Counted from the first letter of the stretch, positions 1 through 51,915 are shown. The stretch is 64,000 nucleotides of DNA from Escherichia coli (GCF_003790525.1 NZ_CP033635.1); one strand, 5' to 3'. Numbers and translations are program-made. The notes: a model not told the origin generated them from the sequence alone.

Positions 1-265
1 GGAGGGTGAGGTGTTTGGCTTGCTATTTACCGAACTCAATAGTGCCCAGGCAAAAATCATTGCGGAACGTATGCGTAAAAATGTCGAACTCCTGACCGGC
101 TTTAGTAACAGATATGATGTTCCTGAACAAATGACCATCAGTATTGGCACGGTTTTTTCAACGGGTGACACGCATAATATCTCGCTTGTCATGACGGAAG
201 CAGATAAAGCCTTACGCGAAGCGAAAAGCGAGGGGGGCAACAAAGTGATTATTCATCATATTTAA
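1..265 (+). CDS. dgcI: diguanylate cyclase DgcI (YeaI), C-terminal fragment; 5' end upstream of window
   Basis: ORF in frame to the window edge ending at TAA 263..265; GGDEF-family C-terminal tail (...TEADKALREAKSEGGNKVIIHHI); sits immediately upstream of dgcJ as in E. coli. Confidence 0.8.
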   Translation, partial: EGEVFGLLFTELNSAQAKIIAERMRKNVELLTGFSNRYDVPEQMTISIGTVFSTGDTHNISLVMTEADKALREAKSEGGNKVIIHHI

Positions 266-445
266 GTGCAAAAATATTCAGAGCCATGCTTTTTGCGTGG
301 CTTTTGCATACAATTTATTACTATTACCCCTAAATTTCCCCTCCCCAGCGGCGCAGAGATGAGTATAATTAGCGCCCCTGTGCCAGGCCGCAATCGAACT
401 TTATCTGGTTTTCTCGTTTCACTAACCGAAGGAGTGCCATTTATC

Positions 446-1936
446 ATGAAATTGCACCATAGAATGCTCCGGCATTTTATCGCCGCAAGTGTCATTGTGC
501 TGACATCTTCCTTCCTTATTTTTGAACTTGTCGCCAGTGACAGAGCAATGAGTGCCTATCTGCGCTATATCGTGCAGAGAGCAGACTCCTCCTTTCTTTA
601 TGATAAGTATCAGAATCAGAGTATTGCCGCGCATGTGATGCGCGCTCTCGCTGCTGAGCAGTCGGAAGTGTCGCCAGAACAGCGGCGAGCCATCTGCGAG
701 GCTTTTGAGTCTGCCAATAATACCCATGGCTTAAACCTGACTGCCCATAAATACCCTGGCTTACGCGGCACACTACAAACCGCATCCACTGACTGCGACA
801 CAATTGTGGAAGCTGCTGCACTATTACCCGCTTTTGATCAGGCAGTGGAAGGCAACCGCCACCAGGATGATTACGGTTCAGGTCTTGGGATGGCCGAAGA
901 GAAATTTCACTATTATCTCGATCTCAATGACCGCTATGTCTATTTTTATGAGCCGGTTAATGTTGAGTACTTTGCGATGAATAACTGGTCCTTCCTGCAG
1001 TCAGGAAGTATTGGCATCGATCGCAAAGATATTGAAAAGGTATTTACCGGGCGTACCGTATTATCGAGCATTTACCAGGATCAGCGTACTAAACAGAACG
1101 TGATGAGTTTGCTGACGCCGGTATATGTCGCAGGGCAGCTAAAAGGGATTGTGCTGCTGGATATTAACAAAAACAATCTGCGGAATATCTTTTACACTCA
1201 TGACCGCCCTCTCCTCTGGCGTTTTCTCAATGTCACGCTAACTGATACCGATTCGGGGCGCGACATTATCATCAACCAGAGCGAAGATAATCTGTTCCAG
1301 TATGTCAGTTACGTCCATGACTTACCGGGCGGCATTCGTGTCTCGTTATCCATTGATATTCTTTACTTTATCACGTCTTCGTGGAAAAGCGTTCTGTTCT
1401 GGATTTTGACGGCGTTAATTTTGCTGAATATGGTGCGGATGCACTTCCGTTTATACCAAAATGTGTCGCGAGAAAATATTAGTGATGCGATGACTGGACT
1501 CTATAATCGCAAAATTTTAACCCCTGAACTGGAGCAGCGGTTGCAGAAACTGGTGCAATCCGGTTCTTCGGTGATGTTTATTGCAATTGACATGGACAAG
1601 TTAAAGCAAATAAATGACACCCTTGGTCATCAGGAGGGGGATTTAGCGATTACGTTATTAGCTCAGGCGATTAAACAATCGATTCGTAAAAGTGATTATG
1701 CCATCCGACTCGGTGGCGATGAATTCTGCATCATTCTTGTCGATTCGACACCGCAAATTGCAGCACAACTGCCTGAACGTATCGAAAAACGTCTGCAACA
1801 TATCGCGCCGCAGAAAGAGATCGGCTTCTCTTCCGGTATTTACGCGATGAAAGAAAACGATACGTTACATGATGCGTATAAAGCTTCCGATGAGCGTTTA
1901 TATGTCAATAAGCAGAACAAAAACAGCCGTTCATGA
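446..1936 (+). CDS. dgcJ: diguanylate cyclase DgcJ (YeaJ), 496 aa
   Basis: ORF 266..1936; ATG at 446 preceded by GGAG (431..434) gives the 496-aa product; intact GGDEF motif (RLGGDEFCIIL); N-terminal TM plus periplasmic sensor domain. Confidence 0.93.
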   Translation: MKLHHRMLRHFIAASVIVLTSSFLIFELVASDRAMSAYLRYIVQRADSSFLYDKYQNQSIAAHVMRALAAEQSEVSPEQRRAICEAFESANNTHGLNLTAHKYPGLRGTLQTASTDCDTIVEAAALLPAFDQAVEGNRHQDDYGSGLGMAEEKFHYYLDLNDRYVYFYEPVNVEYFAMNNWSFLQSGSIGIDRKDIEKVFTGRTVLSSIYQDQRTKQNVMSLLTPVYVAGQLKGIVLLDINKNNLRNIFYTHDRPLLWRFLNVTLTDTDSGRDIIINQSEDNLFQYVSYVHDLPGGIRVSLSIDILYFITSSWKSVLFWILTALILLNMVRMHFRLYQNVSRENISDAMTGLYNRKILTPELEQRLQKLVQSGSSVMFIAIDMDKLKQINDTLGHQEGDLAITLLAQAIKQSIRKSDYAIRLGGDEFCIILVDSTPQIAAQLPERIEKRLQHIAPQKEIGFSSGIYAMKENDTLHDAYKASDERLYVNKQNKNSRS

Positions 1937-1978
1937 TAACCTTCTGTAGTTGTTTGCTTGTAATCTCAGGAGCATGAA

Positions 1979-2482
1979 ATGACTGAAATGGCTAAAGGAA
2001 GCGTGACGCATCAGCGGTTAATCGCTTTATTATCGCAAGAAGGTGCTAACTTCCGCGTCGTTACCCATGAAGCGGTAGGTAAATGTGAAGCGGTGTCAGA
2101 AATTCGTGGCACCGCTTTAGGCCAGGGGGCTAAGGCACTGGTATGTAAAGTCAAAGGCAATGGCGTAAATCAACATGTTCTGGCGATCCTCGCTGCCGAT
2201 CAACAGGCCGATCTGAGCCAACTCGCCAGCCATATAGGCGGATTACGCGCTTCGTTGGCCAGCCCAGCGGAAGTCGATGAACTCACAGGCTGTGTCTTCG
2301 GCGCGATCCCCCCTTTCAGCTTCCATCCAAAACTCAAACTGGTTGCCGACCCCCTACTCTTCGAACGATTTGATGAAATCGCCTTCAATGCAGGCATGCT
2401 GGATAAATCCGTTATTTTGAAAACCGCGGATTATTTGCGTATTGCGCAACCAGAACTGGTCAATTTCCGCCGCACTGCGTAA
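1979..2482 (+). CDS. yeaK: YbaK/ProX-family aminoacyl-tRNA deacylase YeaK, 167 aa
   Basis: Full-length ORF; recognised YeaK sequence; RBS AGGAG upstream. Confidence 0.93.
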   Translation: MTEMAKGSVTHQRLIALLSQEGANFRVVTHEAVGKCEAVSEIRGTALGQGAKALVCKVKGNGVNQHVLAILAADQQADLSQLASHIGGLRASLASPAEVDELTGCVFGAIPPFSFHPKLKLVADPLLFERFDEIAFNAGMLDKSVILKTADYLRIAQPELVNFRRTA

Positions 2483-2587
2483 CTAGCCTGTCCGTTCAAT
2501 AAGCAGAACGGACAAAACCAGCACAGCAGCAATGGCAAAAAACGATGACGTGATAATCAGTGTCTCGACGAACATTTGATCGTTCAT
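2483..2587 (-). CDS. yoaI: small membrane protein YoaI, 34 aa
   Basis: Minus-strand translation [34 protein letters not shown]; below the ORF-track size cutoff; stop codon directly abuts the yeaK stop. Confidence 0.8.
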
Positions 2588-2756
2588 AGTATGCCCCCGG
2601 GAGATAGCTGTTTTCACGTTATTGTTAACGTACACAAATGGCAGTTTGATGACAGTTCGTCTGATTTTTTATGCAAAAAACGTAAAGATTTTCTACTTCC
2701 TGCCTGCAGCAAGCGTAAAGTAAGCAGGCTTATTATTTTTTGGCAAGGAAACCACG

Positions 2757-3203
2757 ATGTTTGATGTCACTTTGCTGATCCTGCTCGGGTTAGCTGCGCT
2801 GGGCTTTATCAGTCATAACACCACTGTCGCCGTTTCAATTCTGGTGTTGATCATTGTCCGCGTCACACCGTTAAGCACCTTTTTCCCGTGGATTGAAAAA
2901 CAGGGGCTAAGTATCGGGATAATCATTCTGACGATTGGCGTTATGGCTCCCATCGCCAGCGGGACGCTACCGCCCTCAACCCTGATTCACTCATTTCTGA
3001 ACTGGAAATCGCTGGTGGCAATTGCAGTCGGCGTTATTGTCTCCTGGCTGGGGGGGCGCGGCGTGACGTTAATGGGCAGCCAGCCGCAACTGGTCGCCGG
3101 GCTGCTGGTGGGCACTGTTTTAGGCGTGGCGCTGTTTCGCGGCGTACCGGTTGGCCCGCTTATTGCCGCGGGTCTGGTTTCGCTGATTGTGGGGAAACAG
3201 TAG
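2757..3203 (+). CDS. yeaL: UPF0756 inner membrane protein YeaL, 148 aa
   Basis: Full-length ORF; highly hydrophobic multi-TM protein; conserved position. Confidence 0.92.
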
Positions 3204-3981
3204 TTAATCCCGCAATATATCGGCCTGGCGTTTGCCCCAGGCCTTTCTTAAACATAGTAATAAAGGCCGTTGTTGAATCATACCCCAGCGTATGAGCAAC
3301 TTTCTGTACAGTATCGCCTTTCACTAATCCCTGAAGCGCCATAATCAGCTGTAACTGCTGACGCCACTGGCGAAAACTCAACCCCGTCTCTTTCACTATC
3401 AGCCGGGCAAGATTGCGTTCACTCATCGCAAAAAAGCCAGCCCATTGCCCCAATGAGCCCCACTCGACGGGCTCTTTCGCCATCATCTCCACCATCGTGC
3501 GGATTTTAGGATGAGAAGAAACGGGCAGGTGCAGCTGTTGTTGTGGCTGCTGAGGGAGTTCATCAAACAGGACCTGAATTAATCTGCGGGTCATCGGCTC
3601 AGCACGCTGAGTCGTCGTCCTGTTTGCCAGGGTTAAAATTAATTCCCGGCATAAGGGCGATATTTTCAATGTGCAACATGTTGTCGGCATTGTCACTGCG
3701 CTGGGCTCGATAAACAGAAAACAGAGTTCAGCGTTAGCTGTCACTTGATTGCTATGTTTCACCCCGCCCGGTATCCAAACCGCATATTGTGGCGGCACCA
3801 TCCACAAAGCATTTTCCACCGTACAGGTAATTGCACCATGTAGCGCCAGTATCAACTGCCCTTTGCGGTGCTGATGTACAGGACTGGTTAACTCATCCGT
3901 TCCGGCGTGAATACAAAATGCGACCGCGGCCTCATGGTGTCGGTCGGGTTCATAGCCATTGAGATTCAACCTGTGCATCAT
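3160..3981 (-). CDS. nimR: AraC-family transcriptional regulator NimR (YeaM), 273 aa
   Basis: Full-length ORF; C-terminal AraC-type HTH; divergent from nimT; 3' end overlaps yeaL convergently by 44 nt. Confidence 0.93.
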
Positions 3982-4077
3982 TTTGTCCGAATTTAGCGAT
4001 AATTTGTCATTTTAGCTTGATTCAACATAACAATAAAAACGGTAAGGTACAGCCTCGTTTGTAACAATGAGAAGCAT

Positions 4078-5259
4078 ATGACCTGTTCAACTTCATTAAG
4101 CGGCAAAAACAGGATTGTCCTTATCGCTGGTATTCTGATGATTGCCACAACATTACGCGTCACCTTTACCGGCGCAGCACCGTTACTGGATACGATTCGT
4201 TCCGCTTACTCGCTGACGACAGCGCAAACCGGCTTATTGACCACCCTGCCATTATTGGCCTTTGCGCTAATCTCACCTTTGGCCGCCCCGGTGGCGCGAC
4301 GTTTTGGTATGGAACGTAGCCTGTTTGCCGCGTTACTTTTGATCTGTGCAGGTATCGCAATTCGCTCTCTCCCTTCGCCTTACTTATTATTTGGCGGTAC
4401 AGCGGTCATTGGCGGTGGGATTGCATTAGGTAATGTCTTACTGCCAGGATTAATTAAACGCGATTTCCCTCATTCCGTCGCCAGACTTACCGGCGCATAT
4501 TCCCTGACAATGGGAGCTGCGGCGGCACTGGGATCGGCTATGGTAGTGCCGCTGGCTTTGAACGGTTTTGGCTGGCGAGGCGCGTTGCTCATGCTGATGT
4601 GTTTTCCTCTGCTGGCTCTTTTTTTATGGCTGCCACAGTGGCGAAGTCAACAACATGCAAATTTGAGTACCTCACGCGCCTTACATACTCGGGGTATCTG
4701 GCGTTCGCCGCTTGCCTGGCAGGTAACATTGTTTCTTGGGATCAACTCACTCGTCTATTACGTGATTATTGGCTGGCTTCCGGCGATCCTCATCAGTCAC
4801 GGCTATAGCGAAGCACAGGCGGGTTCACTGCATGGTTTGCTGCAACTAGCCACAGCAGCTCCCGGTTTGCTGATCCCACTTTTCTTACATCATGTGAAAG
4901 ATCAGCGTGGTATTGCAGCGTTCGTTGCCTTGATGTGCGCAGTGGGCGCGGTTGGGCTCTGCTTTATGCCAGCACACGCGATCACCTGGACTCTGCTTTT
5001 CGGTTTTGGTTCCGGCGCAACAATGATACTGGGGTTGACGTTCATTGGTCTGCGGGCAAGTTCTGCGCATCAGGCGGCGGCACTCTCGGGGATGGCACAA
5101 TCCGTCGGGTATTTGCTGGCAGCCTGTGGGCCGCCGCTGATGGGTAAAATACACGATGCTAACGGTGACTGGTCCGTACCACTGATGGGTGTTGCAATAC
5201 TTTCACTACTGATGGCGATTTTCGGACTTTGCGCCGGGAGAGACAAAGAAATTCGCTAA
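4078..5259 (+). CDS. nimT: MFS transporter NimT (YeaN), 2-nitroimidazole exporter, 393 aa
   Basis: Full-length ORF; 12-TM MFS profile; divergent from nimR. Confidence 0.93.
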   Translation: MTCSTSLSGKNRIVLIAGILMIATTLRVTFTGAAPLLDTIRSAYSLTTAQTGLLTTLPLLAFALISPLAAPVARRFGMERSLFAALLLICAGIAIRSLPSPYLLFGGTAVIGGGIALGNVLLPGLIKRDFPHSVARLTGAYSLTMGAAAALGSAMVVPLALNGFGWRGALLMLMCFPLLALFLWLPQWRSQQHANLSTSRALHTRGIWRSPLAWQVTLFLGINSLVYYVIIGWLPAILISHGYSEAQAGSLHGLLQLATAAPGLLIPLFLHHVKDQRGIAAFVALMCAVGAVGLCFMPAHAITWTLLFGFGSGATMILGLTFIGLRASSAHQAAALSGMAQSVGYLLAACGPPLMGKIHDANGDWSVPLMGVAILSLLMAIFGLCAGRDKEIR

Positions 5260-5313
5260 TATCCGGTGCTATAGTGACGTGACAAATCATGCGTGAAAGG
5301 GAGAACAAACACG

Positions 5314-5661
5314 ATGAATATTCAGTGCAAACGCGTTTATGATCCGGCTGAACAGAGCGATGGTTATCGCGTACTGGTCGACCGCCTCTGGCCGCGCGGT
5401 ATCAAAAAAACCGATTTAGCCCTTGATGAGTGGGATAAAGAAATCACGCCGTCAACGGAACTGCGCAAAGCCTTTCACGGCGAAGTCGTCGATTTTGCAA
5501 CCTTTCGCGAGCAATATCTTGCAGAACTGGCGCAACACGAGCAAGAAGGAAAGCGGCTGGCAAACATCGCCAAAAAACAGCCGCTGACCCTGCTCTACTC
5601 AGCAAAAAACACCACGCAGAACCATGCGCTGGTGCTGGCCGACTGGCTACGTAGCTTATGA
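5314..5661 (+). CDS. yeaO: DUF488 family protein YeaO, 115 aa
   Basis: ORF 5293..5661; ATG at 5314 with RBS AAGGGAGA gives the 115-aa product (MNIQCKRVYDPAEQSDGYRVLVDRLWPRG...). Confidence 0.9.
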   Translation: MNIQCKRVYDPAEQSDGYRVLVDRLWPRGIKKTDLALDEWDKEITPSTELRKAFHGEVVDFATFREQYLAELAQHEQEGKRLANIAKKQPLTLLYSAKNTTQNHALVLADWLRSL

Positions 5662-5682
5662 TTTTAGTACAGCATCCGGCGG

Positions 5683-5937
5683 TTATTTTTCACCAGCCGG
5701 ATGATCCCGTCGCCACAATGCCCATTCATCAATCGTTTCACCGCCCGGTAATTTGCAATTGTTGCTGACCCCTTGCGCTGTCTGCACTGGAATGAGCGTC
5801 CCGCCCTTCTGCTGGCAATAGACCGACGCCGGATTTGCCATACCAATCTGCGGCGGTTTAGGTGCTTCTGGCTGAGAAGAGGTTGAACAACCAGCCAGAA
5901 CCAGCAAGCAAGGCAGAACAAAACTGATAATTTTCAT
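5683..5937 (-). CDS. yoaF: DUF333 lipoprotein YoaF, 84 aa
   Basis: Full-length ORF; signal peptide with lipobox (LVLAGCSTS). Confidence 0.9.
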   Translation of the reverse strand: MKIISFVLPCLLVLAGCSTSSQPEAPKPPQIGMANPASVYCQQKGGTLIPVQTAQGVSNNCKLPGGETIDEWALWRRDHPAGEK

Positions 5938-6119
5938 TTATTGATCTCACATATTTATCCAGGCTTAGAGTATCGCGGTATCGTTTTGTTTTGCAGCACT
6001 ATTTTTATTACATTCACTCAAATCATATTACGCCTTGTTTCATCTTTGTTGATGATGTTTTATCATGCCTGCAAAGATTAAATAATCAGCATTTACCCGC
6101 CGTATCCTGGAGTTGTTTC

Positions 6120-7145
6120 GTGTCAGATCAGATTATCGCCCGCGTCTCGCAATCCCTTGCCAAAGAACAGTCACTGGAAAGCCTGGTCCGACAGCTTCTG
6201 GAGATGCTGGAAATGGTCACTGATATGGAATCAACCTACCTGACCAAAGTGGATGTCGAAGCGCGCCTGCAGCATATAATGTTTGCCCGTAACAGCCAGA
6301 AAATGCACATCCCGGAGAATTTTACCGTCTCGTGGGATTATTCGTTATGCAAACGCGCCATTGATGAAAACTGCTTTTTCAGCGATGAAGTCCCCGACCG
6401 TTGGGGCGACTGTATTGCGGCACGCAATCTTGGCATCACCACATTTCTGAGCACGCCAATTCACTTACCGGATGGATCATTCTATGGCACGCTTTGCGCC
6501 GCCAGCAGTGAGAAGCGCCAGTGGAGTGAACGCGCGGAACAGGTTTTGCAGTTATTCGCCGGACTGATTGCACAATATATTCAAAAAGAGGCGCTGGTAG
6601 AACAGCTGCGCGAAGCCAATGCCGCACTGATAGCGCAATCGTATACCGACTCGTTAACCGGGCTACCGAATCGGCGGGCGATTTTTGAAAATCTGACGAC
6701 GCTGTTTTCTCTCGCCCGGCATCTTAACCATAAGATAATGATCGCGTTTATCGACCTGGATAACTTCAAATTAATCAACGATCGTTTTGGTCATAATAGT
6801 GGCGATCTGTTTCTCATTCAGGTTGGCGAGCGCCTTAATACGCTCCAGCAAAATGGCGAAGTTATTGGTCGTCTCGGCGGTGATGAGTTTTTGGTTGTTT
6901 CACTGAACAACGAGAATACGGATATTTCGTCGCTGCGAGAACGTATTCAACAGCAAATACGTGGAGAATATCACTTAGGTGATGTTGATTTGTATTATCC
7001 CGGTGCCAGTCTTGGCATAGTAGAAGTCGATCCTGAAACGACCGATGCAGACAGTGCCCTGCATGCTGCCGATATCGCGATGTATCAGGAGAAAAAACAC
7101 AAACAGAAAACACCTTTTGTCGCGCATCCAGCGCTACATTCCTGA
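6120..7145 (+). CDS. dgcP: diguanylate cyclase DgcP (YeaP), GAF-GGDEF, 341 aa
   Basis: ORF 5991..7145; GTG at 6120 gives the 341-aa product; intact GGDEF motif (RLGGDEFLVVS); N-terminal GAF-like domain. Confidence 0.92.
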   Translation: MSDQIIARVSQSLAKEQSLESLVRQLLEMLEMVTDMESTYLTKVDVEARLQHIMFARNSQKMHIPENFTVSWDYSLCKRAIDENCFFSDEVPDRWGDCIAARNLGITTFLSTPIHLPDGSFYGTLCAASSEKRQWSERAEQVLQLFAGLIAQYIQKEALVEQLREANAALIAQSYTDSLTGLPNRRAIFENLTTLFSLARHLNHKIMIAFIDLDNFKLINDRFGHNSGDLFLIQVGERLNTLQQNGEVIGRLGGDEFLVVSLNNENTDISSLRERIQQQIRGEYHLGDVDLYYPGASLGIVEVDPETTDADSALHAADIAMYQEKKHKQKTPFVAHPALHS

Positions 7146-7177
7146 GGCGTATTCACATCCTTTTGATTGGTGATAAC

Positions 7178-7276
7178 ATGCGAATCGGTATTATTTTTCC
7201 GGTTGTAATCTTTATTACAGCGGTCGTATTTTTAGCATGGTTTTTTATTGGCGGCTATGCTGCCCCGGGAGCATAA
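7178..7276 (+). CDS. yoaK: small membrane protein YoaK, 32 aa
   Basis: Translation MRIGIIFPVVIFITAVVFLAWFFIGGYAAPGA*; single predicted TM helix; below the ORF-track cutoff. Confidence 0.8.
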   Translation: MRIGIIFPVVIFITAVVFLAWFFIGGYAAPGA

Positions 7277-7278
7277 AG

Positions 7279-7353
7279 ATGAAAAAAACAACGATTATTA
7301 TGATGGGTGTGGCGATTATTGTCGTACTCGGCACTGAGCTGGGATGGTGGTAA
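7279..7353 (+). CDS. yoaJ: small membrane protein YoaJ, 24 aa
   Basis: Translation MKKTTIIMMGVAIIVVLGTELGWW*; starts 2 nt after the yoaK stop. Confidence 0.78.
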   Translation: MKKTTIIMMGVAIIVVLGTELGWW

Positions 7354-7411
7354 CGTCACATCTAGAAAATAGCAAAGGCTGCCTGTGTGCAGCCTTTGTG
7401 CAATTTACGCG

Positions 7412-7660
7412 TTAACTTTTAATCTTTCTGTAGATAAACAGCACGACAATCGCGCCAATAACGGCAACCACGAAGCTGCCAAAATTGAAGCCATCGACTT
7501 TACCAAAGCCAAACAGCGTGCTGATCCATCCGCCGACTACGGCACCGACTATCCCCAGCAGGATAGTCATAAAGAATCCACCACCATCTTTACCTGGCAT
7601 GATCCACTTCGCCAGAATACCGGCAATAAGCCCAAAAATAATCCATGACAGAATGCCCAT
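7412..7660 (-). CDS. yeaQ: GlsB/YeaQ/YmgE-family stress-induced membrane protein YeaQ, 82 aa
   Basis: Full-length ORF; glycine-rich transmembrane protein. Confidence 0.92.
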   Translation of the reverse strand: MGILSWIIFGLIAGILAKWIMPGKDGGGFFMTILLGIVGAVVGGWISTLFGFGKVDGFNFGSFVVAVIGAIVVLFIYRKIKS

Positions 7661-16635: not shown

Positions 16636-16663
16636 GTCAAAAAAAACGCCGGATTAACCGGCG
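16636..16663 (-). terminator. intrinsic terminator downstream of fadD
   Basis: Minus strand ACGCCGG-TTAAT-CCGGCGT followed by TTTTTTTT. Confidence 0.7.
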
Positions 16664-16683
16664 TCTGACGACTGACTTAACGC

Positions 16684-18369
16684 TCAGGCTTTATTGTCCA
16701 CTTTGCCGCGCGCTTCGTCACGTAATTCTCGTCGCAAAATTTTTCCGACGTTAGATTTCGGTAACTCATCACGAAACTCCACCAGCTTCGGTACTTTGTA
16801 GCCCGTGAGCTGACGGCGGCAAAAAGTCACCAGTGACTCTTCGGTAAGCGATGGATCTTTTTTCACAACGAAGATTTTCACCGCTTCACCACTAGAGCCG
16901 GAAGGTACGCCAACAGCCGCGACTTCCTGTACGCCAGGATGCTGCATGACGACATCTTCAATCTCGTTGGGATAGACGTTAAAACCGGAAACCAGAATCA
17001 TGTCTTTTTTACGATCGACAATGCGCAGGAATCCTTCTTCATCCATCACCGCGATGTCGCCGGTGTGTAACCAGCCATTTTTGATGATTTCATCGGTAGC
17101 ATCCGGACGCTGCCAGTAACCCAGCATCACCTGCGGTCCTTTGACACAAAGCTCACCTGGTTGACCAGGTGGTACTTCATTATCATCATCATCCACCAGT
17201 TTGGCTTCCGTCGACGGCACCGGCAAACCGATGCTACCACTATGATAATCAATATCATACGGGTTAACGCTCACCAGCGGCGCACACTCGGTCAGGCCAT
17301 AACCTTCCAGCAGATACTGTCCAGTCAGTTTCACCCAACGTTCTGCCACCACTTGCTGAACAGGCATCCCTCCGCCTGCGGAAAGATGCAGACTGGAGAA
17401 ATCCAGCTGCTGGAACTCTTTATTGTTCAGCAACGCATTGAACAAGGTGTTAACGCCAGTGATAGCGGTAAACGGATATTTCGCTAACTCTTTTACCAAC
17501 CCTGGAATATCGCGCGGGTTAGTGATAAGCAGGTTCTGCCCCCCCAGTTCGATAAACAGCAGGCAGTTAATGGTCAGTGCAAAAATGTGATACAGCGGCA
17601 GCGCCGTCACCACCAGCTCTTTGCCCGGATGCAACAGCGGACCATAGGTCGCGTTAACCTGTTCCAGGTTCGCCAGCATATTGCGGTGAGTCAGCATCGC
17701 GCCTTTCGCCACACCAGTGGTACCGCCGGTGTATTGCAGGAAAGCTAAATCTTCCGGCACCAGTTCGGGTTTGACGTACTGCATCCGGTAGCCGTTGTGC
17801 AGGGCGCTACGAAATGAAATGGCATCTGGCAGATGGTATTTCGGCACCAGACGCTTGATGTATTTAACAACGAAATTGACTACCGTGCCTTTTGCCGTAG
17901 ATAGCTGATCGCCCATACGGGTCAGAATTACGTGCTGAACGGCGGTTTTATCAACCACTTTTTCCAGAGTGTGGGCAAAGTTAGACACGATAACAATCGC
18001 CGATGCGCCGCTATCGTTAAGCTGATGCTCAAGTTCACGCGGGGTATACAACGGGTTAACGTTTACGACAATCATCCCGGCACGCAAAATGCCAAACAGC
18101 GCCACCGGATATTGCAATAAATTAGGCATCATCAACGCAACGCGATCGCCTTTCTTCAGTCCCAACCCTTGTTGCAAATAAGCGGCAAACGCGCGACTGC
18201 GTTCTTCCAGTTTGCGGAAGGTCATCACCTCCCCCATATTCACAAACGCGGGTTGATCGGCGTAGCGCGCGACCGACTGCTCAAACATATCTACCAGAGA
18301 TTGATAACGGTCAGGGTTGATCTCCGTCGGAACGTCCGCGGGATAACGGTTAAGCCAAACCTTCTTCAA
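16684..18369 (-). CDS. fadD: long-chain-fatty-acid--CoA ligase FadD, 561 aa
   Basis: ORF 16684..18435; the 561-aa product begins [33 protein letters not shown]..., implying a TTG start at 18369; AMP-binding motifs present. Confidence 0.93.
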
Positions 18370-27048: not shown

Positions 27049-28647
27049 ATGCAAAAAGCACAACGGATCATTAAAACCTATCGCCGTAATCGAATGATTG
27101 TTTGTACGATTTGCGCCCTCGTTACGCTCGCTTCGACCCTGAGCGTGCGATTTATTTCACAGCGTAACTTAAATCAACAACGGGTAGTACAATTCGCCAA
27201 TCACGCTGTAGAGGAATTAGATAAAGTACTGCTTCCCCTACAGGCAGGTAGCGAAGTCTTGCTTCCGCTGATTGGTCTGCCCTGCTCTGTCGCCCATTTG
27301 CCATTACGTAAACAGGCGGCAAAACTCCAAACTGTGCGATCCATTGGCCTGGTGCAAGACGGCACACTTTATTGCTCCAGCATTTTTGGTTATCGCAATG
27401 TGCCCGTCGTGGACATTCTGGCTGAACTTCCTGCACCGCAACCACTTTTACGCCTGACGATCGACCGTGCCCTGATTAAAGGCAGTCCGGTTTTGATTCA
27501 GTGGACGCCAGCAGCGGGCAGTAGCAAAGCTGGGGTCATGGAGATGATTAACATCGACTTACTGGCGGCAATGCTGCTTGAGCCACAACTGCCGCAAATC
27601 AGTAGCGCCAGCCTGACGGTGGACGATCGGCATTTGCTCTATGGTAATGGGCTGGTAGATTCCCTTCCGCAACCTGAAAACAATGAAAACTACCAGGTTT
27701 CTTCGCAACGCTTTCCTTTTACCATTAACGTTAATGGTCCGGGGGCTACGGCGCTGGCATGGCACTATCTTCCAACACAATTACCGCTGGCGGTGCTGCT
27801 AAGTTTACTGGTGGGCTACATCGCCTGGCTGGCGACCGCTTACCGGATGAGCTTTTCCCGCGAAATCAATCTGGGCCTGGCGCAACATGAGTTCGAATTG
27901 TTCTGTCAGCCTTTGCTTAATGCGCGCAGCCAGCAATGTATTGGTGTAGAGATTTTGCTTCGCTGGAACAATCCGCGTCAGGGCTGGATTTCACCGGATG
28001 TGTTTATTCCTATCGCGGAAGAACATCATTTAATTGTGCCACTGACCCGCTATGTGATGGCAGAAACCATTCGTCAGCGCCATGTTTTCCCGATGAGTAG
28101 TCAGTTTCATGTTGGCATTAACGTCGCACCCAGCCATTTTCGCCGTGGTGTGCTGATAAAAGATCTCAATCAGTACTGGTTTAGCGCTCACCCGATTCAG
28201 CAACTGATCCTCGAAATCACCGAACGCGATGCCTTACTGGATGTTGATTATCGGATTGCCCGCGAGCTACATCGTAAAAACGTCAAACTGGCGATTGATG
28301 ACTTCGGCACCGGCAACAGTTCATTTTCCTGGCTTGAAACATTACGTCCTGACGTGCTGAAAATTGATAAGTCATTTACCGCAGCTATAGGTTCTGACGC
28401 GGTTAACTCGACGGTGACCGATATCATCATCGCTCTGGGGCAAAGACTGAATATTGAACTGGTGGCGGAGGGTGTGGAAACACAAGAACAGGCGAAGTAT
28501 TTGCGCCGTCATGGGGTGCATATTTTGCAAGGGTATTTGTACGCACAGCCGATGCCGCTACGTGATTTTCCCAAATGGCTGGCGGGCAGCCAACCGCCGC
28601 CCGCCCGGCATAATGGACATATCACGCCCGTTATGCCGTTACGTTAA
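27049..28647 (+). CDS. pdeD: c-di-GMP phosphodiesterase PdeD (YoaD), CSS-EAL, 532 aa
   Basis: ORF 27019..28647; ATG at 27049 gives 532 aa; N-terminal TM plus periplasmic CSS domain; EAL domain with E(I)L signature in VEILLRW. Confidence 0.92.
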   Translation: MQKAQRIIKTYRRNRMIVCTICALVTLASTLSVRFISQRNLNQQRVVQFANHAVEELDKVLLPLQAGSEVLLPLIGLPCSVAHLPLRKQAAKLQTVRSIGLVQDGTLYCSSIFGYRNVPVVDILAELPAPQPLLRLTIDRALIKGSPVLIQWTPAAGSSKAGVMEMINIDLLAAMLLEPQLPQISSASLTVDDRHLLYGNGLVDSLPQPENNENYQVSSQRFPFTINVNGPGATALAWHYLPTQLPLAVLLSLLVGYIAWLATAYRMSFSREINLGLAQHEFELFCQPLLNARSQQCIGVEILLRWNNPRQGWISPDVFIPIAEEHHLIVPLTRYVMAETIRQRHVFPMSSQFHVGINVAPSHFRRGVLIKDLNQYWFSAHPIQQLILEITERDALLDVDYRIARELHRKNVKLAIDDFGTGNSSFSWLETLRPDVLKIDKSFTAAIGSDAVNSTVTDIIIALGQRLNIELVAEGVETQEQAKYLRRHGVHILQGYLYAQPMPLRDFPKWLAGSQPPPARHNGHITPVMPLR

Positions 28648-35682: not shown

Positions 35683-35775
35683 GACAACTCCGGCAGGATA
35701 CTAAAGGCCGCAAGTGTAACGCGAATCACGCGGCGGGCAAATATCCGAACGCCAGGAGCGAAGATAAAGCAAAGT

Positions 35776-35803
35776 AAAAAGCCTCGCATTCGGCGAGGCT
35801 TTA
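35776..35803 (-). terminator. intrinsic terminator downstream of cspC
   Basis: Minus strand AAAGCCTCGCC-GAAT-GCGAGGCTTT followed by TT. Confidence 0.7.
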
Positions 35804-35847
35804 TAGCGAGATTGAAGCGTATTCACACTTCAGATCAGTGGATTCGA

Positions 35848-36057
35848 TCAGATAGCTGTTACGTTAACAGCTGCCGGACCTTTCTGGCCGTCCTGAATTT
35901 CGAACTCAACGTTCTGACCTTCAGCCAGAGTTTTGAAGCCATTACCCTGGATAGCGGAGAAGTGTACGAACACGTCTTTGCTGCCATCAGCCGGAGTAAT
36001 GAAGCCAAAACCTTTAGACTCGTTGAACCACTTAACCTGACCTTTAATCTTTGCCAT
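35848..36057 (-). CDS. cspC: cold shock-like protein CspC, 69 aa
   Basis: Full-length ORF; [22 protein letters not shown]... with RNP motifs. Confidence 0.97.
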
Positions 36058-36069
36058 TTGAAAAATTCC

Positions 36070-36213
36070 TTAGATTGTTTTCTTCGCCCGCAGGCATAAC
36101 ATAGATAAAACTGACACATTACTGCATGAGGCACCAATATAAGGCTCGGCAGAGAAGCGGTATTCAACGTCAACGTGTTTACTCAGGACTTCTTTACTGA
36201 AAATGCCACACAT
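36070..36213 (-). CDS. yobF: small protein YobF, 47 aa
   Basis: Minus-strand translation [47 protein letters not shown]; ends 12 nt upstream of cspC (yobF-cspC operon). Confidence 0.82.
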
Positions 36214-36882
36214 AAACAGAACTGTACCTCGTTTAACCCGAAATCTGTTATCACATACAACGTTAATTATGGCAAGCCATTTTTAAACATGTCTCGATCA
36301 GACGCACAAATCTCGATACGTCTTCCACTTTTTTTGCACACTTATGCAACGGAATACGCGCCGATATATCATTGTGCTTAACCTTGCCAGTTCAGGCAGA
36401 TACTTAAACTGACGTATTTTCTAACATAGTTCAATAAGTTCAGTTGTTCCATGCCAATGGGAGAAGTTATTACATAGTGCGTGCAATATCACATTTTCTG
36501 CTATGCAATGAATAAAAAGTTATATCACTTTTTCTCATAAAACAGTCAGTTAACGGCCATCAATCACCCCAAAGAGAAGTCAATCGCCAAAGGTATTGTA
36601 AATTTAAAATAAGAAAAATTGATGAATGCGCAAAAAAATCAAGAGAGAAACGTTTCGCTAATAAATAATACCACGCTTAATCACAAATCCGATGTAAACA
36701 TCCTAATAAATTAATGGGCTAAATATCTTTTTCTGATATCCCGTTACGCAAATAAATAATATGATAATTATTTGAAGTCAGACCAGAGTTTTAATTTGAA
36801 GCAGTTGCACCATGACAGTGCGTATAATCAGGATGAATTGAGTAACCCTTCAACGACGGGGTTACTCAAGATTGAGGAAGGA

Positions 36883-51591: not shown

Positions 51592-51725
51592 CAATATTTT
51601 CCTCCCGCGCTAAAGATCACATAATCTTAACAAGAATGTTAAAAAACGCTGGACTCAGACAGTAGAGTGTGTGTTATGGTTGACTATAAAGTCAGCGAAG
51701 GGAATGCTTCTGGCTTTTAACAGAT

Positions 51726-51828
51726 AAAAAGAGACCGAACACGATTCCTGTATTCGGTCCAGGGAAATGGCTCTTGGGAGAGAGCCGTGCGCTAAAAGTT
51801 GGCATTAATGCAGGCTTAGTTGCCTTGC
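51726..51828 (-). ncRNA. sdsR: small regulatory RNA SdsR (RyeB)
   Basis: Minus strand reads GCAAGGCAACUAAGCCUGCAUUAAUGCCAACUUUUAGCGCACGGCUCUCUCCCAAGAGCCAUUUCCCUGGACCGAAUACAGGAAUCGUGUUCGGUCUCUUUUU, matching remembered SdsR including its 3' terminator hairpin and U-tail; sigma-S-type -10 (CTATTCTTAA) just upstream. Confidence 0.85.
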
Positions 51829-51915
51829 TCTTTAAGAATAGATGACGACGCCAGATTTTCCAGTTTGCGTGCAAAATGGTCAATAAAAAGCGCGGTGGTC
51901 ATCAGCTTAAATGTT

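What the first reader, a model, noticed from the sequence alone, without database searches (positions are those of the whole stretch)
1..7145. Local concentration of c-di-GMP turnover genes (dgcI, dgcJ, dgcP here; pdeD at 27049..28647)
Within 7 kb there are three GGDEF proteins and, 20 kb further on, a CSS-EAL phosphodiesterase. dgcJ and dgcP retain canonical GGDEF active-site motifs (RLGGDEFCI and RLGGDEFLV seen), and pdeD retains an E-I-L EAL signature. Only the C-terminal tail of dgcI is in the window, so its active-site status cannot be assessed here.
Basis: partly seen in the sequence, partly recalled or inferred. Interest (0 to 1): 0.3.

Follow-up and report, generated by a model that had tools for sequence, protein, structure and literature searches.

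The report
Known E. coli c-di-GMP gene neighbourhood
This is the well-studied yeaI–yeaJ…yeaP…yoaD stretch of the E. coli core chromosome: four independently regulated c-di-GMP signalling genes that lie near each other through evolutionary history rather than shared function, and the first is a non-catalytic c-di-GMP binder (CdgI), not a cyclase called "DgcI".

Summary
The window is E. coli SMS-3-5 chromosome and carries the 3' end of yeaI (1..265), dgcJ (446..1936), dgcP (6120..7145) and pdeD (27049..28647). The quoted motifs (RLGGDEFCI, RLGGDEFLV, EIL) are present. Two details are wrong. The first gene is cdgI (YeaI); DgcI is YliF, encoded elsewhere. Its active-site motif is inside the window (bases 2-16) and reads EGEVF, which is degenerate, while its RxxD I-site is intact. 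Published work shows CdgI binds c-di-GMP. The four proteins have four different sensor domains: MASE4, GAPES1/dCache, GAF and CSS. Their GGDEF domains are only 28-30% identical. Unrelated genes on both strands separate them, and they are regulated differently. Synteny in 20 enterobacterial loci shows dgcJ and dgcP at old positions on a conserved backbone. cdgI is a low-GC, Escherichia-only occupant of a variable slot next to dgcJ, and its closest paralog is DgcT (37% identity, full length). Three genes within 7 kb is nominally unusual (p about 0.02, noticed post hoc). The older dgcJ–dgcP pair is not unusual (p about 0.6). All four proteins are 98-99% identical to K-12 orthologs. Already known; low interest.

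The parts
1..265 (+). 3' end of cdgI (yeaI), codons 404-491 of 491. The full gene is L001:2790-4265. It is a MASE4 + degenerate GGDEF protein that binds c-di-GMP and is not a cyclase.
   Evidence: RefSeq annotation; Pfam MASE4 1.6e-48 + GGDEF 9e-45; translation; PMC5635695
2..16 (+). Degenerate A-site of CdgI: E-G-E-V-F in place of GG(D/E)EF. The intact I-site RPDD lies just upstream of the window.
   Evidence: the motif drifts within the CdgI clade while RxxD never changes
446..1936 (+). dgcJ (yeaJ): diguanylate cyclase with a GAPES1/dCache periplasmic sensor and a GGDEF domain. It differs from K-12 at one residue (K45R).
   Evidence: Pfam GAPES1 7e-151, GGDEF 3e-40; NCBIfam DgcJ equivalog 747 bits against a cutoff of 500
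1685..1726 (+). DgcJ I-site RKSD (1685-1696) and A-site GGDEF (1712-1726)
   Evidence: D425/E426 intact; the DE425NQ allele is inactive in vivo (PMC8669472)
6120..7145 (+). dgcP (yeaP): cytoplasmic GAF + GGDEF diguanylate cyclase with a GTG start. It differs from K-12 at 2 residues.
   Evidence: Pfam GAF_2 1.4e-10, GGDEF 5e-41
6876..6890 (+). DgcP A-site GGDEF. There is no RxxD I-site; the corresponding position reads QNGE.
27049..28647 (+). pdeD (yoaD): CSS-domain + EAL c-di-GMP phosphodiesterase. It differs from K-12 at 5 residues.
   Evidence: Pfam CSS-motif 1e-42, EAL 3e-58; 193 bits to the PA3825 EAL structure
27373..27381 (+). CSS motif of PdeD (C109-S-S). The partner cysteine is C79.
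   Evidence: both cysteines are conserved in all five E. coli CSS PDEs according to PMC5897775
27949..27957 (+). EIL (EAL-type) motif of PdeD, followed by LR
   Evidence: the other catalytic motifs EITE389, DDFGTG417, KID438, EGVE474 and QGY494 are all present

Best explanation
The region is the ordinary, core-genome yeaG–yoaE segment of the E. coli chromosome. It holds four separate c-di-GMP signalling genes that work independently.

(1) CdgI (YeaI) is a membrane MASE4 protein. Its GGDEF domain has lost the catalytic A-site (EGEVF) but keeps the RxxD I-site. It is a c-di-GMP binder and possible GGDEF-domain interaction partner, not a cyclase.

(2) DgcJ (YeaJ) is an active membrane cyclase with a periplasmic dCache/GAPES1 sensor. 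It delivers c-di-GMP locally to the glycosyltransferase NfrB, whose gene is not in this window, and so controls the phage N4 receptor glycan.

(3) DgcP (YeaP) is a cytoplasmic GAF-GGDEF cyclase without I-site feedback. It is expressed during growth.

(4) PdeD (YoaD) is one of five CSS-domain EAL phosphodiesterases. By inference from PdeC and PdeB, a periplasmic Cys79–Cys109 disulfide holds it in a low-activity state, and reduction activates it.

The proximity comes from history rather than from a shared mechanism. dgcJ and dgcP sit at old positions on a conserved enterobacterial backbone. cdgI, a DgcT-type paralog of low GC content, occupies a variable slot between yeaH and dgcJ only in Escherichia. 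pdeD is simply 20 kb away.

Shown here: identities, domains, motifs, paralogy, synteny and composition. From the literature: c-di-GMP binding by CdgI, the DgcJ→NfrB link, and expression patterns. Inferred: redox control of PdeD, and horizontal acquisition of cdgI.
For: Identity and conservation: 100% match to SMS-3-5. The 8-kb stretch is present at 80% coverage or more in 5397 of 5426 complete E. coli genomes. K-12 has the same gene order. The proteins are 98-99% identical to K-12.

Different architectures: MASE4, GAPES1, GAF and CSS.

GGDEF domains are only 28-30% identical to one another, and the similarity is confined to that domain.

CdgI is 37% identical to DgcT over its full length, and DgcT keeps GGEEF.

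In the CdgI clade the A-site varies (EGEVF, EGEEF, DGEVF, EGDVF, EGNVF, EGKRF) while RxxD never changes. Relatives at 57-61% identity keep GGEEF.

Synteny: dgcJ lies between yeaH and yeaK in Escherichia, Salmonella arizonae, Citrobacter, Klebsiella and Kluyvera. dgcP lies between yoaF and yeaQ in most of them. cdgI is found only in Escherichia. The same slot holds a glycosyltransferase-like gene, an ABC transporter or a methyltransferase in other genera, or is empty.

cdgI GC is 0.39, against 0.46-0.53 for neighbouring genes and 0.50 for the window.

Intervening genes are unrelated and lie on both strands (yeaK, yoaI, yeaL, nimR, nimT, yeaO, yoaF).

Literature:
[quoted passage not shown] DgcP is under vegetative control and PdeD under RpoS control. 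[quoted passage not shown]
- DgcJ specifically activates NfrB, and catalytic residues are required (PMC8669469, PMC8669472).
- CSS PDEs, including PdeD (PMC5897775).
- YeaI is catalytically non-functional and belongs to the YcdT/DgcX/YeaI family (PMC10459773).
Against: Three GGDEF genes within 7 kb is nominally improbable under uniform placement (p = 0.024). The specific event, a new GGDEF gene landing directly beside an existing one, is roughly a 2% event by my own estimate, so a selective reason for adjacency cannot be ruled out.

Sarenko et al. report that the CdgI GGDEF domain makes strong heteromeric contacts with several other GGDEF domains. The partner list is in a figure I could not read, so a CdgI–DgcJ or CdgI–DgcP contact is not excluded.

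Spurbeck et al. 2012 (PMC3484386) list YeaI among proteins with 'verified' cyclase activity. They also found ΔyeaI complemented by WspR in one medium, which conflicts with the non-catalytic view.

DgcP activity is weak or conditional in Shigella: there was no LC-MS change, and the reporter rose only slowly (PMC11327459).
Confidence: 0.9

Rival explanations
1. The genes form a functional c-di-GMP module (a signalling 'island'). Physical linkage would then reflect co-regulation or co-inheritance of enzymes acting on one pathway.
For: Nominal clustering p = 0.018-0.024. All four genes are on the same strand. The dgcJ–dgcP linkage is conserved in several genera.
Against: Seven unrelated genes on both strands lie between dgcJ and dgcP, and about 20 genes lie between dgcP and pdeD. 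The four proteins have four different sensor domains. Reported regulation differs: CdgI is silent and CsrA-repressed, dgcJ is higher at 37 °C, DgcP is vegetative, and PdeD is RpoS-dependent. DgcJ's target NfrB is encoded outside the window, and no other single dgc deletion affects it. dgcP is lost in Salmonella arizonae and several Citrobacter that retain dgcJ, and cdgI is absent outside Escherichia. None of the four is an interaction hub.
Confidence: 0.04
2. The cluster arose by local tandem duplication of a GGDEF gene followed by divergence, with cdgI and dgcJ as sister paralogs.
For: cdgI and dgcJ are adjacent, co-directional, of similar length (491 and 496 aa), and separated by 180 bp.
Against: Similarity is confined to the GGDEF domain at 29% identity, no higher than DgcJ against DgcP at 28%. 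The N-terminal domains are unrelated: MASE4 is an integral-membrane domain and GAPES1 is periplasmic. CdgI's full-length paralog is DgcT (37%), which is encoded next to the pga operon. cdgI is absent from the slot in every non-Escherichia locus. Its GC content is distinct (0.39 against 0.46).
Confidence: 0.02
3. CdgI (YeaI) is a genuine, if unusual, diguanylate cyclase, so the region really does hold three cyclases.
For: Spurbeck et al. 2012 list YeaI as having verified DGC activity. They report that ΔyeaI biofilm loss in no-salt LB is complemented by the cyclase WspR (PMC3484386). The GGDEF domain is otherwise well preserved (Pfam 9e-45), and the third motif position (E407) is retained.
Against: The motif is EGEVF, with G→E at position 1 and D/E→V at position 4, plus an IND→INA change. 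Within the clade the motif keeps drifting, which indicates relaxed constraint, while the I-site is fixed. ΔyeaI was not complemented by WspR in glycerol medium. Sarenko 2017 and Cimdins-Ahne 2023 classify it as degenerate or catalytically non-functional and show c-di-GMP binding. K-12 RefSeq names it 'putative c-di-GMP binding protein'.
Confidence: 0.06

Closest known systems
E. coli K-12 cdgI(b1785)–dgcJ(b1786)…dgcP(b1794)…pdeD(b1815) region
   Same: Identical gene order and spacing. The proteins are 98-99% identical and all motifs are the same.
   Different: Only a few substitutions: CdgI 8, DgcJ 1 (K45R), DgcP 2, PdeD 5. None falls in a catalytic or ligand-binding motif.
DgcT (YcdT) / DgcX, the MASE4-GGDEF diguanylate cyclases
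   Same: CdgI shares the full MASE4 + GGDEF architecture, is 37% identical to DgcT over 449 residues, and has the same RPDD I-site.
   Different: DgcT has GGEEF and is an active cyclase. CdgI has EGEVF and is regarded as non-catalytic.
PdeC (YjcC) / PdeB, the CSS-domain EAL phosphodiesterases with DsbA/DsbB redox control
   Same: PdeD has the same CSS-motif domain (Pfam 1e-42) with two conserved cysteines (C79, C109), flanked by hydrophobic segments, and a complete EAL catalytic set.
   Different: Redox switching and DegP/DegQ processing were demonstrated for PdeC and PdeB, not for PdeD. PdeD scores 319 bits against a cutoff of 461 for the NCBIfam PRK10551 equivalog, so it is a paralog and not the same protein.
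DgcJ–NfrB local c-di-GMP signalling (phage N4 receptor glycan)
   Same: The DgcJ here is the same protein. The putative ligand-binding residues Y168, Y210, D212 and D239 and the catalytic D425 and E426 are all present.
   Different: Nothing structural. Whether SMS-3-5 carries an intact nfrBA operon was not checked.
Co-transcribed DGC/PDE pairs such as dgcO–pdeO (dosCP)
   Same: c-di-GMP genes lying close together on the chromosome.
   Different: DgcO and PdeO are encoded in one operon (PMC5635695). The genes here are separated by 180 bp to 20 kb, with unrelated genes between dgcJ, dgcP and pdeD, and they have different reported regulation.

Membership tests
Active GGDEF diguanylate cyclase | GGDEF (PF00990) domain present | tested here: met
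   CdgI 9e-45, DgcJ 3.4e-40, DgcP 5.1e-41
Active GGDEF diguanylate cyclase | Intact GG(D/E)EF A-site | tested here: met
   Met for DgcJ (GGDEF aa 423) and DgcP (GGDEF aa 253). The result for CdgI is given in the next row.
Active GGDEF diguanylate cyclase (applied to CdgI) | Intact GG(D/E)EF A-site | tested here: not met
   CdgI has EGEVF at aa 405-409, which is window 2-16. The motif is degenerate throughout the CdgI clade. CdgI is therefore not filed as a cyclase.
Active GGDEF diguanylate cyclase | Makes c-di-GMP from GTP | not testable with these tools
   Literature only. The DgcJ DE425NQ allele is inactive in vivo. Shigella DgcP raises a c-di-GMP reporter relative to its GG→AA mutant, but slowly.
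Degenerate GGDEF c-di-GMP receptor (CdgI type) | Degenerate A-site combined with an intact RxxD I-site five residues upstream | tested here: met
   RPDD-ILARL-EGEVF. RxxD is invariant in all 19 aligned relatives.
Degenerate GGDEF c-di-GMP receptor (CdgI type) | Binds c-di-GMP | not testable with these tools
   Reported for purified K-12 CdgI (PMC5635695). The SMS-3-5 protein is 98% identical, with no change near the I-site.
MASE4-GGDEF family (DgcT/DgcX/CdgI) | N-terminal MASE4 integral-membrane domain and full-length homology to DgcT | tested here: met
   MASE4 1.6e-48. 37% identity over 449 aa to DgcT, E = 1e-99.
EAL c-di-GMP phosphodiesterase | EAL domain with E(A/I/V)LxR plus the N, ExxE, DDFGTG, K, EGVE and Q catalytic set | tested here: met
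   EAL 2.6e-58. EILLR301, EITE389, DDFGTG417, KID438, EGVE474 and QGY494 are present. The same pattern is tabulated for yoaD in PMC3484386.
CSS-domain phosphodiesterase (PdeC type) | Periplasmic CSS-motif domain with two conserved cysteines | tested here: met
   PF12792 1.1e-42, residues 43-240. C79 and C109 (CSS) are present.
CSS-domain phosphodiesterase (PdeC type) | Disulfide-dependent inhibition and DegP/DegQ processing | not testable with these tools
   Shown for PdeC and PdeB only, and inferred for PdeD by the authors.
Operon or functional gene cluster | Contiguous co-transcribed genes, or all members conserved together across taxa | tested here: not met
   Unrelated genes on both strands intervene. 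cdgI is Escherichia-only, and dgcP is lost in several taxa that retain dgcJ.
Tandem paralog array | Neighbours are each other's closest paralogs over their full length | tested here: not met
   29% identity in the GGDEF domain only, with different N-terminal domains. CdgI's closest full-length paralog found is DgcT.

The most novel reading that the evidence does not exclude
The placement of cdgI directly beside dgcJ in Escherichia may not be accidental. CdgI, through its c-di-GMP-loaded I-site and its reported tendency to form heteromeric GGDEF–GGDEF contacts, could act as a c-di-GMP-gated inhibitor or scaffold of the neighbouring cyclase DgcJ. That would place the DgcJ→NfrB phage-N4-receptor pathway under feedback control specific to Escherichia.
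Probability: 0.05. Interest if true: 0.45.

Novelty: already known. Interest (0 to 1): 0.08.

Why it matters
It matters little beyond correct bookkeeping. All four genes belong to the fully catalogued set of 29 GGDEF/EAL genes of E. coli K-12, which have a systematic nomenclature, expression maps, interaction maps and, for DgcJ, a defined target.

Three points are useful:
- The name is corrected from dgcI to cdgI.
- Only two of the three GGDEF genes are cyclases.
- The apparent cluster is a historical accident, an old dgcJ/dgcP backbone plus an Escherichia-specific cdgI insertion, so it should not be annotated as a signalling island.

The minor new observations are that CdgI's A-site drifts while its I-site is fixed, that the yeaH|dgcJ slot is variable, and that the annotated cdgI start is probably too long. 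They support the existing receptor model and do not open a new question.

Tried and rejected
Tandem-duplication origin. Rejected by pairwise comparison, domain content and the DgcT comparison.

A hidden additional GGDEF/EAL gene in the window. tblastn with all four domains found nothing beyond the known genes; the only extra hit had E = 0.35. The annotation lists none.

A strain-specific change in SMS-3-5. None of consequence was found. The substitutions against K-12 avoid all motifs.

Consensus promoter and terminator scan of 1..7600. It was uninformative: 6 promoter-like sites against 10.8 expected, and 11 terminator-like sites against 9.2 expected. It therefore gives no independent evidence on transcription units.

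An Rfam scan for a c-di-GMP riboswitch or other regulatory RNA near the genes. Only unrelated known RNAs were found, elsewhere in the window.

Reading the primary sources for the nomenclature (PMC4686207), the 61-strain comparison (PMC4686209) and the YeaI activity claim (PMC3158426). None of these is held, so I relied on papers that cite them.

Extracting CdgI's GGDEF interaction partners from the Sarenko supplements. Only primer tables are held as text.

Structure prediction and fold searches were not used, because sequence-level assignment was unambiguous.


Full report
WHAT THE WINDOW IS. The first 8 kb match E. coli SMS-3-5 (NC_010498.1, reverse strand) at 100% identity. The stretch is present at 80% coverage or more in 5397 of 5426 complete E. 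coli genomes, so it is core chromosome. RefSeq annotation of the whole window and of the K-12 reference gives the same gene order: yeaG-yeaH-cdgI-dgcJ-yeaK-yoaI-yeaL-nimR-nimT-yeaO-yoaF-dgcP-yoaK-yoaJ-yeaQ … sdaA-pdeD-yoaE.

CHECK OF THE OBSERVATION. The coordinates are exact: yeaI tail 1..265, dgcJ 446..1936, dgcP 6120..7145 (GTG start), pdeD 27049..28647.

- Pfam finds GGDEF in the first three proteins and CSS-motif plus EAL in the fourth, all far above threshold.
- The quoted strings are present: RLGGDEFCI in DgcJ (GGDEF at aa 423, window 1712-1726), RLGGDEFLV in DgcP (aa 253, window 6876-6890), and VEILLR in PdeD (aa 301).
- PdeD also carries the rest of the EAL catalytic set (EITE, DDFGTG, KID, EGVE, QGY) and the two CSS-domain cysteines C79 and C109. 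It aligns over the whole EAL domain to solved, active EAL structures.
- tblastn with all four catalytic domains and the annotation show no further GGDEF or EAL gene in the 64 kb.

TWO ERRORS IN THE FINDING. First, the gene at 1..265 is not dgcI. RefSeq and K-12 call it cdgI, and Sarenko et al. 2017 state that DgcI is the former YliF and CdgI the former YeaI (PMC5635695). Second, the active site is assessable within the window. Bases 2-16 translate to E-G-E-V-F, which occupies the position of GG(D/E)EF.

With the upstream sequence (L001), the full protein is MASE4 + GGDEF. Its motif region reads RPDD-ILARL-EGEVF, a degenerate A-site with an intact RxxD I-site at the canonical spacing. By the same test, DgcJ has both sites (RKSD … GGDEF) and DgcP has the A-site only (QNGE … GGDEF). 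So the three 'GGDEF proteins' are one receptor-type protein and two cyclases, and the two cyclases differ in product-inhibition capacity.

ARE THE GENES RELATED TO EACH OTHER OR LINKED IN FUNCTION? They carry four different sensor modules: MASE4, GAPES1/dCache, GAF and CSS. CdgI against DgcJ is 29% identical over 130 residues of the GGDEF domain only. DgcJ against DgcP is 28%. Adjacency therefore does not reflect recent tandem duplication.

CdgI is instead 37% identical over 449 residues, covering both domains, to DgcT, which is encoded beside the pga operon and retains GGEEF. This agrees with the published YcdT/DgcX/YeaI family (PMC10459773).

Among database relatives, every protein at 64% identity or more to CdgI has a non-canonical and variable A-site (EGEVF, EGEEF, DGEVF, EGDVF, EGNVF, EGKRF). 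RxxD is invariant in all 19 aligned sequences. The next relatives (57-61% identity, several from Citrobacter) have GGEEF. That is the pattern expected if selection maintains c-di-GMP binding but not catalysis.

ORIGIN OF THE PROXIMITY. A scan of one genome per species with DgcJ returned 23 loci. I searched them with 17 neighbourhood proteins, with these results:

- The backbone yeaG-yeaH-[slot]-dgcJ-yeaK-yeaL-(nimR-nimT)-yeaO-yoaF-[dgcP]-yeaQ is conserved in Escherichia, Salmonella enterica arizonae, Citrobacter, the Klebsiella oxytoca group and Kluyvera.
- dgcJ (45-69% identity outside Escherichia) is always between yeaH and yeaK.
- dgcP (55-70%) is between yoaF and yeaQ in Klebsiella, Kluyvera and one C. 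amalonaticus. It is missing in S. arizonae, C. sedlakii and another C. amalonaticus.
- cdgI is found only in Escherichia species.
- The slot between yeaH and dgcJ is empty (about 145 bp) in C. amalonaticus and C. sedlakii. It holds a 386-aa glycosyltransferase-like gene in Klebsiella, an ABC transporter in Kluyvera intermedia and a methyltransferase in C. koseri.
- cdgI has 39% GC, against 46-53% for its neighbours and 50% for the window.

My reading is that an old dgcJ…dgcP arrangement was joined by a lineage-specific, probably horizontally acquired, DgcT-type gene at a variable site. This is an inference.

IS IT MORE THAN CHANCE? Placing 29 genes uniformly on the K-12 chromosome gives P = 0.024 for three within the observed 7.1 kb and P = 0.018 for four within 28 kb. 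A pair as close as the unit (cdgI/dgcJ)–dgcP is expected in 59% of random genomes. The nominal significance is modest and post hoc, and it rests entirely on the single cdgI insertion.

WHAT EACH PROTEIN DOES (LITERATURE).

- CdgI: it binds c-di-GMP and is undetectable under standard conditions. Its isolated GGDEF domain makes strong contacts with several other GGDEF domains, and its function is unknown (PMC5635695).
- DgcJ: it is the one cyclase required for phage N4 infection. It contacts and locally activates the c-di-GMP-binding glycosyltransferase NfrB. The DE425NQ allele is inactive, putative dCache ligand residues matter, and transcription is higher at 37 °C than at 30 °C (PMC8669469, PMC8669472). 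All those residues are intact here, and the protein differs from K-12 only by K45R.
- DgcP: it is strongly expressed during growth under vegetative control. ΔyeaP biofilm loss in CFT073 is rescued by a heterologous cyclase. The Shigella ortholog raises a c-di-GMP reporter slowly relative to its GG→AA mutant.
- PdeD: it is one of five CSS-domain PDEs, is RpoS-dependent, and is conserved in more than 90% of 61 strains. Disulfide control was shown for PdeC and PdeB and is inferred for PdeD (PMC5897775). ΔyoaD is rescued by a heterologous PDE.

A CONFLICT TO FLAG. Spurbeck et al. 2012 list YeaI among proteins with 'verified diguanylate cyclase activity' and saw WspR complementation of ΔyeaI in one medium but not in another. 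The cited primary paper is not held. The motif evidence here and later work favour the non-catalytic view, so I give the catalytic alternative about 6%.

VERDICT. The gene name and the 'cannot be assessed' statement are wrong, and the 'local concentration' has no demonstrated functional meaning. Everything of substance is already published for K-12, and the SMS-3-5 copies are 98-99% identical.

The only reading with some novelty is that CdgI sits beside DgcJ because it modulates it. It is not excluded, because I could not read the partner matrix, but nothing here supports it. Interest is low.

Noticed in passing
L001:2790-2921 (just upstream of the window; codons 1-44 of annotated cdgI): The annotated 491-aa CdgI start is probably 44-47 codons too far upstream. 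Other Escherichia relatives are 447 aa, and the DgcT alignment begins at residue 48. SMS-3-5 against K-12 shows 4 nonsynonymous and 0 synonymous changes in codons 1-44, against 4 and 19 in codons 45-491. No clear Shine-Dalgarno sequence was seen before M45 or M48.
   Followed up: partly
cdgI (window 1-265 and upstream); database clusters P0013, P0018, P0024: Truncated CdgI variants lacking the GGDEF domain are frequent among deposited sequences: 345 aa with 639 members, 281 aa with 934 members, and 295 aa with 249 members, against 10877 members for the full-length cluster. This suggests recurrent inactivation in E. coli lineages.
   Followed up: partly
cdgI–dgcJ–yeaL (window 1-3203); proteins P0026, P0035, P0017: Rare single-member chimeric proteins exist. 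In two, the CdgI N-terminus is joined to the DgcJ C-terminus (532 and 560 aa; the 532-aa one carries MASE4+GAPES1+GGDEF). In one, the CdgI N-terminus is joined to the YeaL C-terminus. These imply occasional internal deletions, or assembly or gene-calling artefacts, in this region.
   Followed up: partly
window 3160-5259 (nimR, nimT); loci L005, L006, L007, L014: The nimR–nimT (2-nitroimidazole exporter and its regulator) pair is missing between yeaL and yeaO in Escherichia sp. E1V33, E. whittamii, Escherichia sp. MOD1-EC7003 and E. albertii. It is present in E. coli, Salmonella, Citrobacter, Klebsiella and Kluyvera.
   Followed up: no
L016:8482-9642(-), L026:4326-6065(+), L013:9059-9829(-): The yeaH|dgcJ intergenic slot is a variable insertion site across Enterobacteriaceae. 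It holds a glycosyltransferase-like gene in Klebsiella, an ABC transporter in Kluyvera intermedia, a methyltransferase in C. koseri and cdgI in Escherichia, and it is empty in C. amalonaticus and C. sedlakii. These functional labels are my reading of the ORF translations and were not checked with a domain search.
   Followed up: partly
window 51722-51866 (both strands), 35773-36233 (-), 16640-16725 (-): Rfam gathering-threshold hits: the overlapping antisense sRNA pair SraC/RyeA (+) and SdsR/RyeB (-), a cspA-type thermoregulator 5' UTR upstream of the cspC-like cold-shock gene, and sroD. All are known E. coli RNAs.
   Followed up: no
L021 (NZ_JAHZMP010000305.1, 429 bp): A 429-bp contig in a Terrisporobacter mayombei (Firmicutes) assembly encodes a fragment 99% identical to E. 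coli DgcJ. This is almost certainly E. coli contamination of that assembly.
   Followed up: no
window 266-1936 (+): The mechanical ORF list gives a 556-aa frame starting at a GTG immediately after the cdgI stop codon and running into dgcJ. The annotated 496-aa start at 446 (MKLHHRML) matches the NCBIfam DgcJ model from its position 1, so the longer frame is not the gene.
   Followed up: yes
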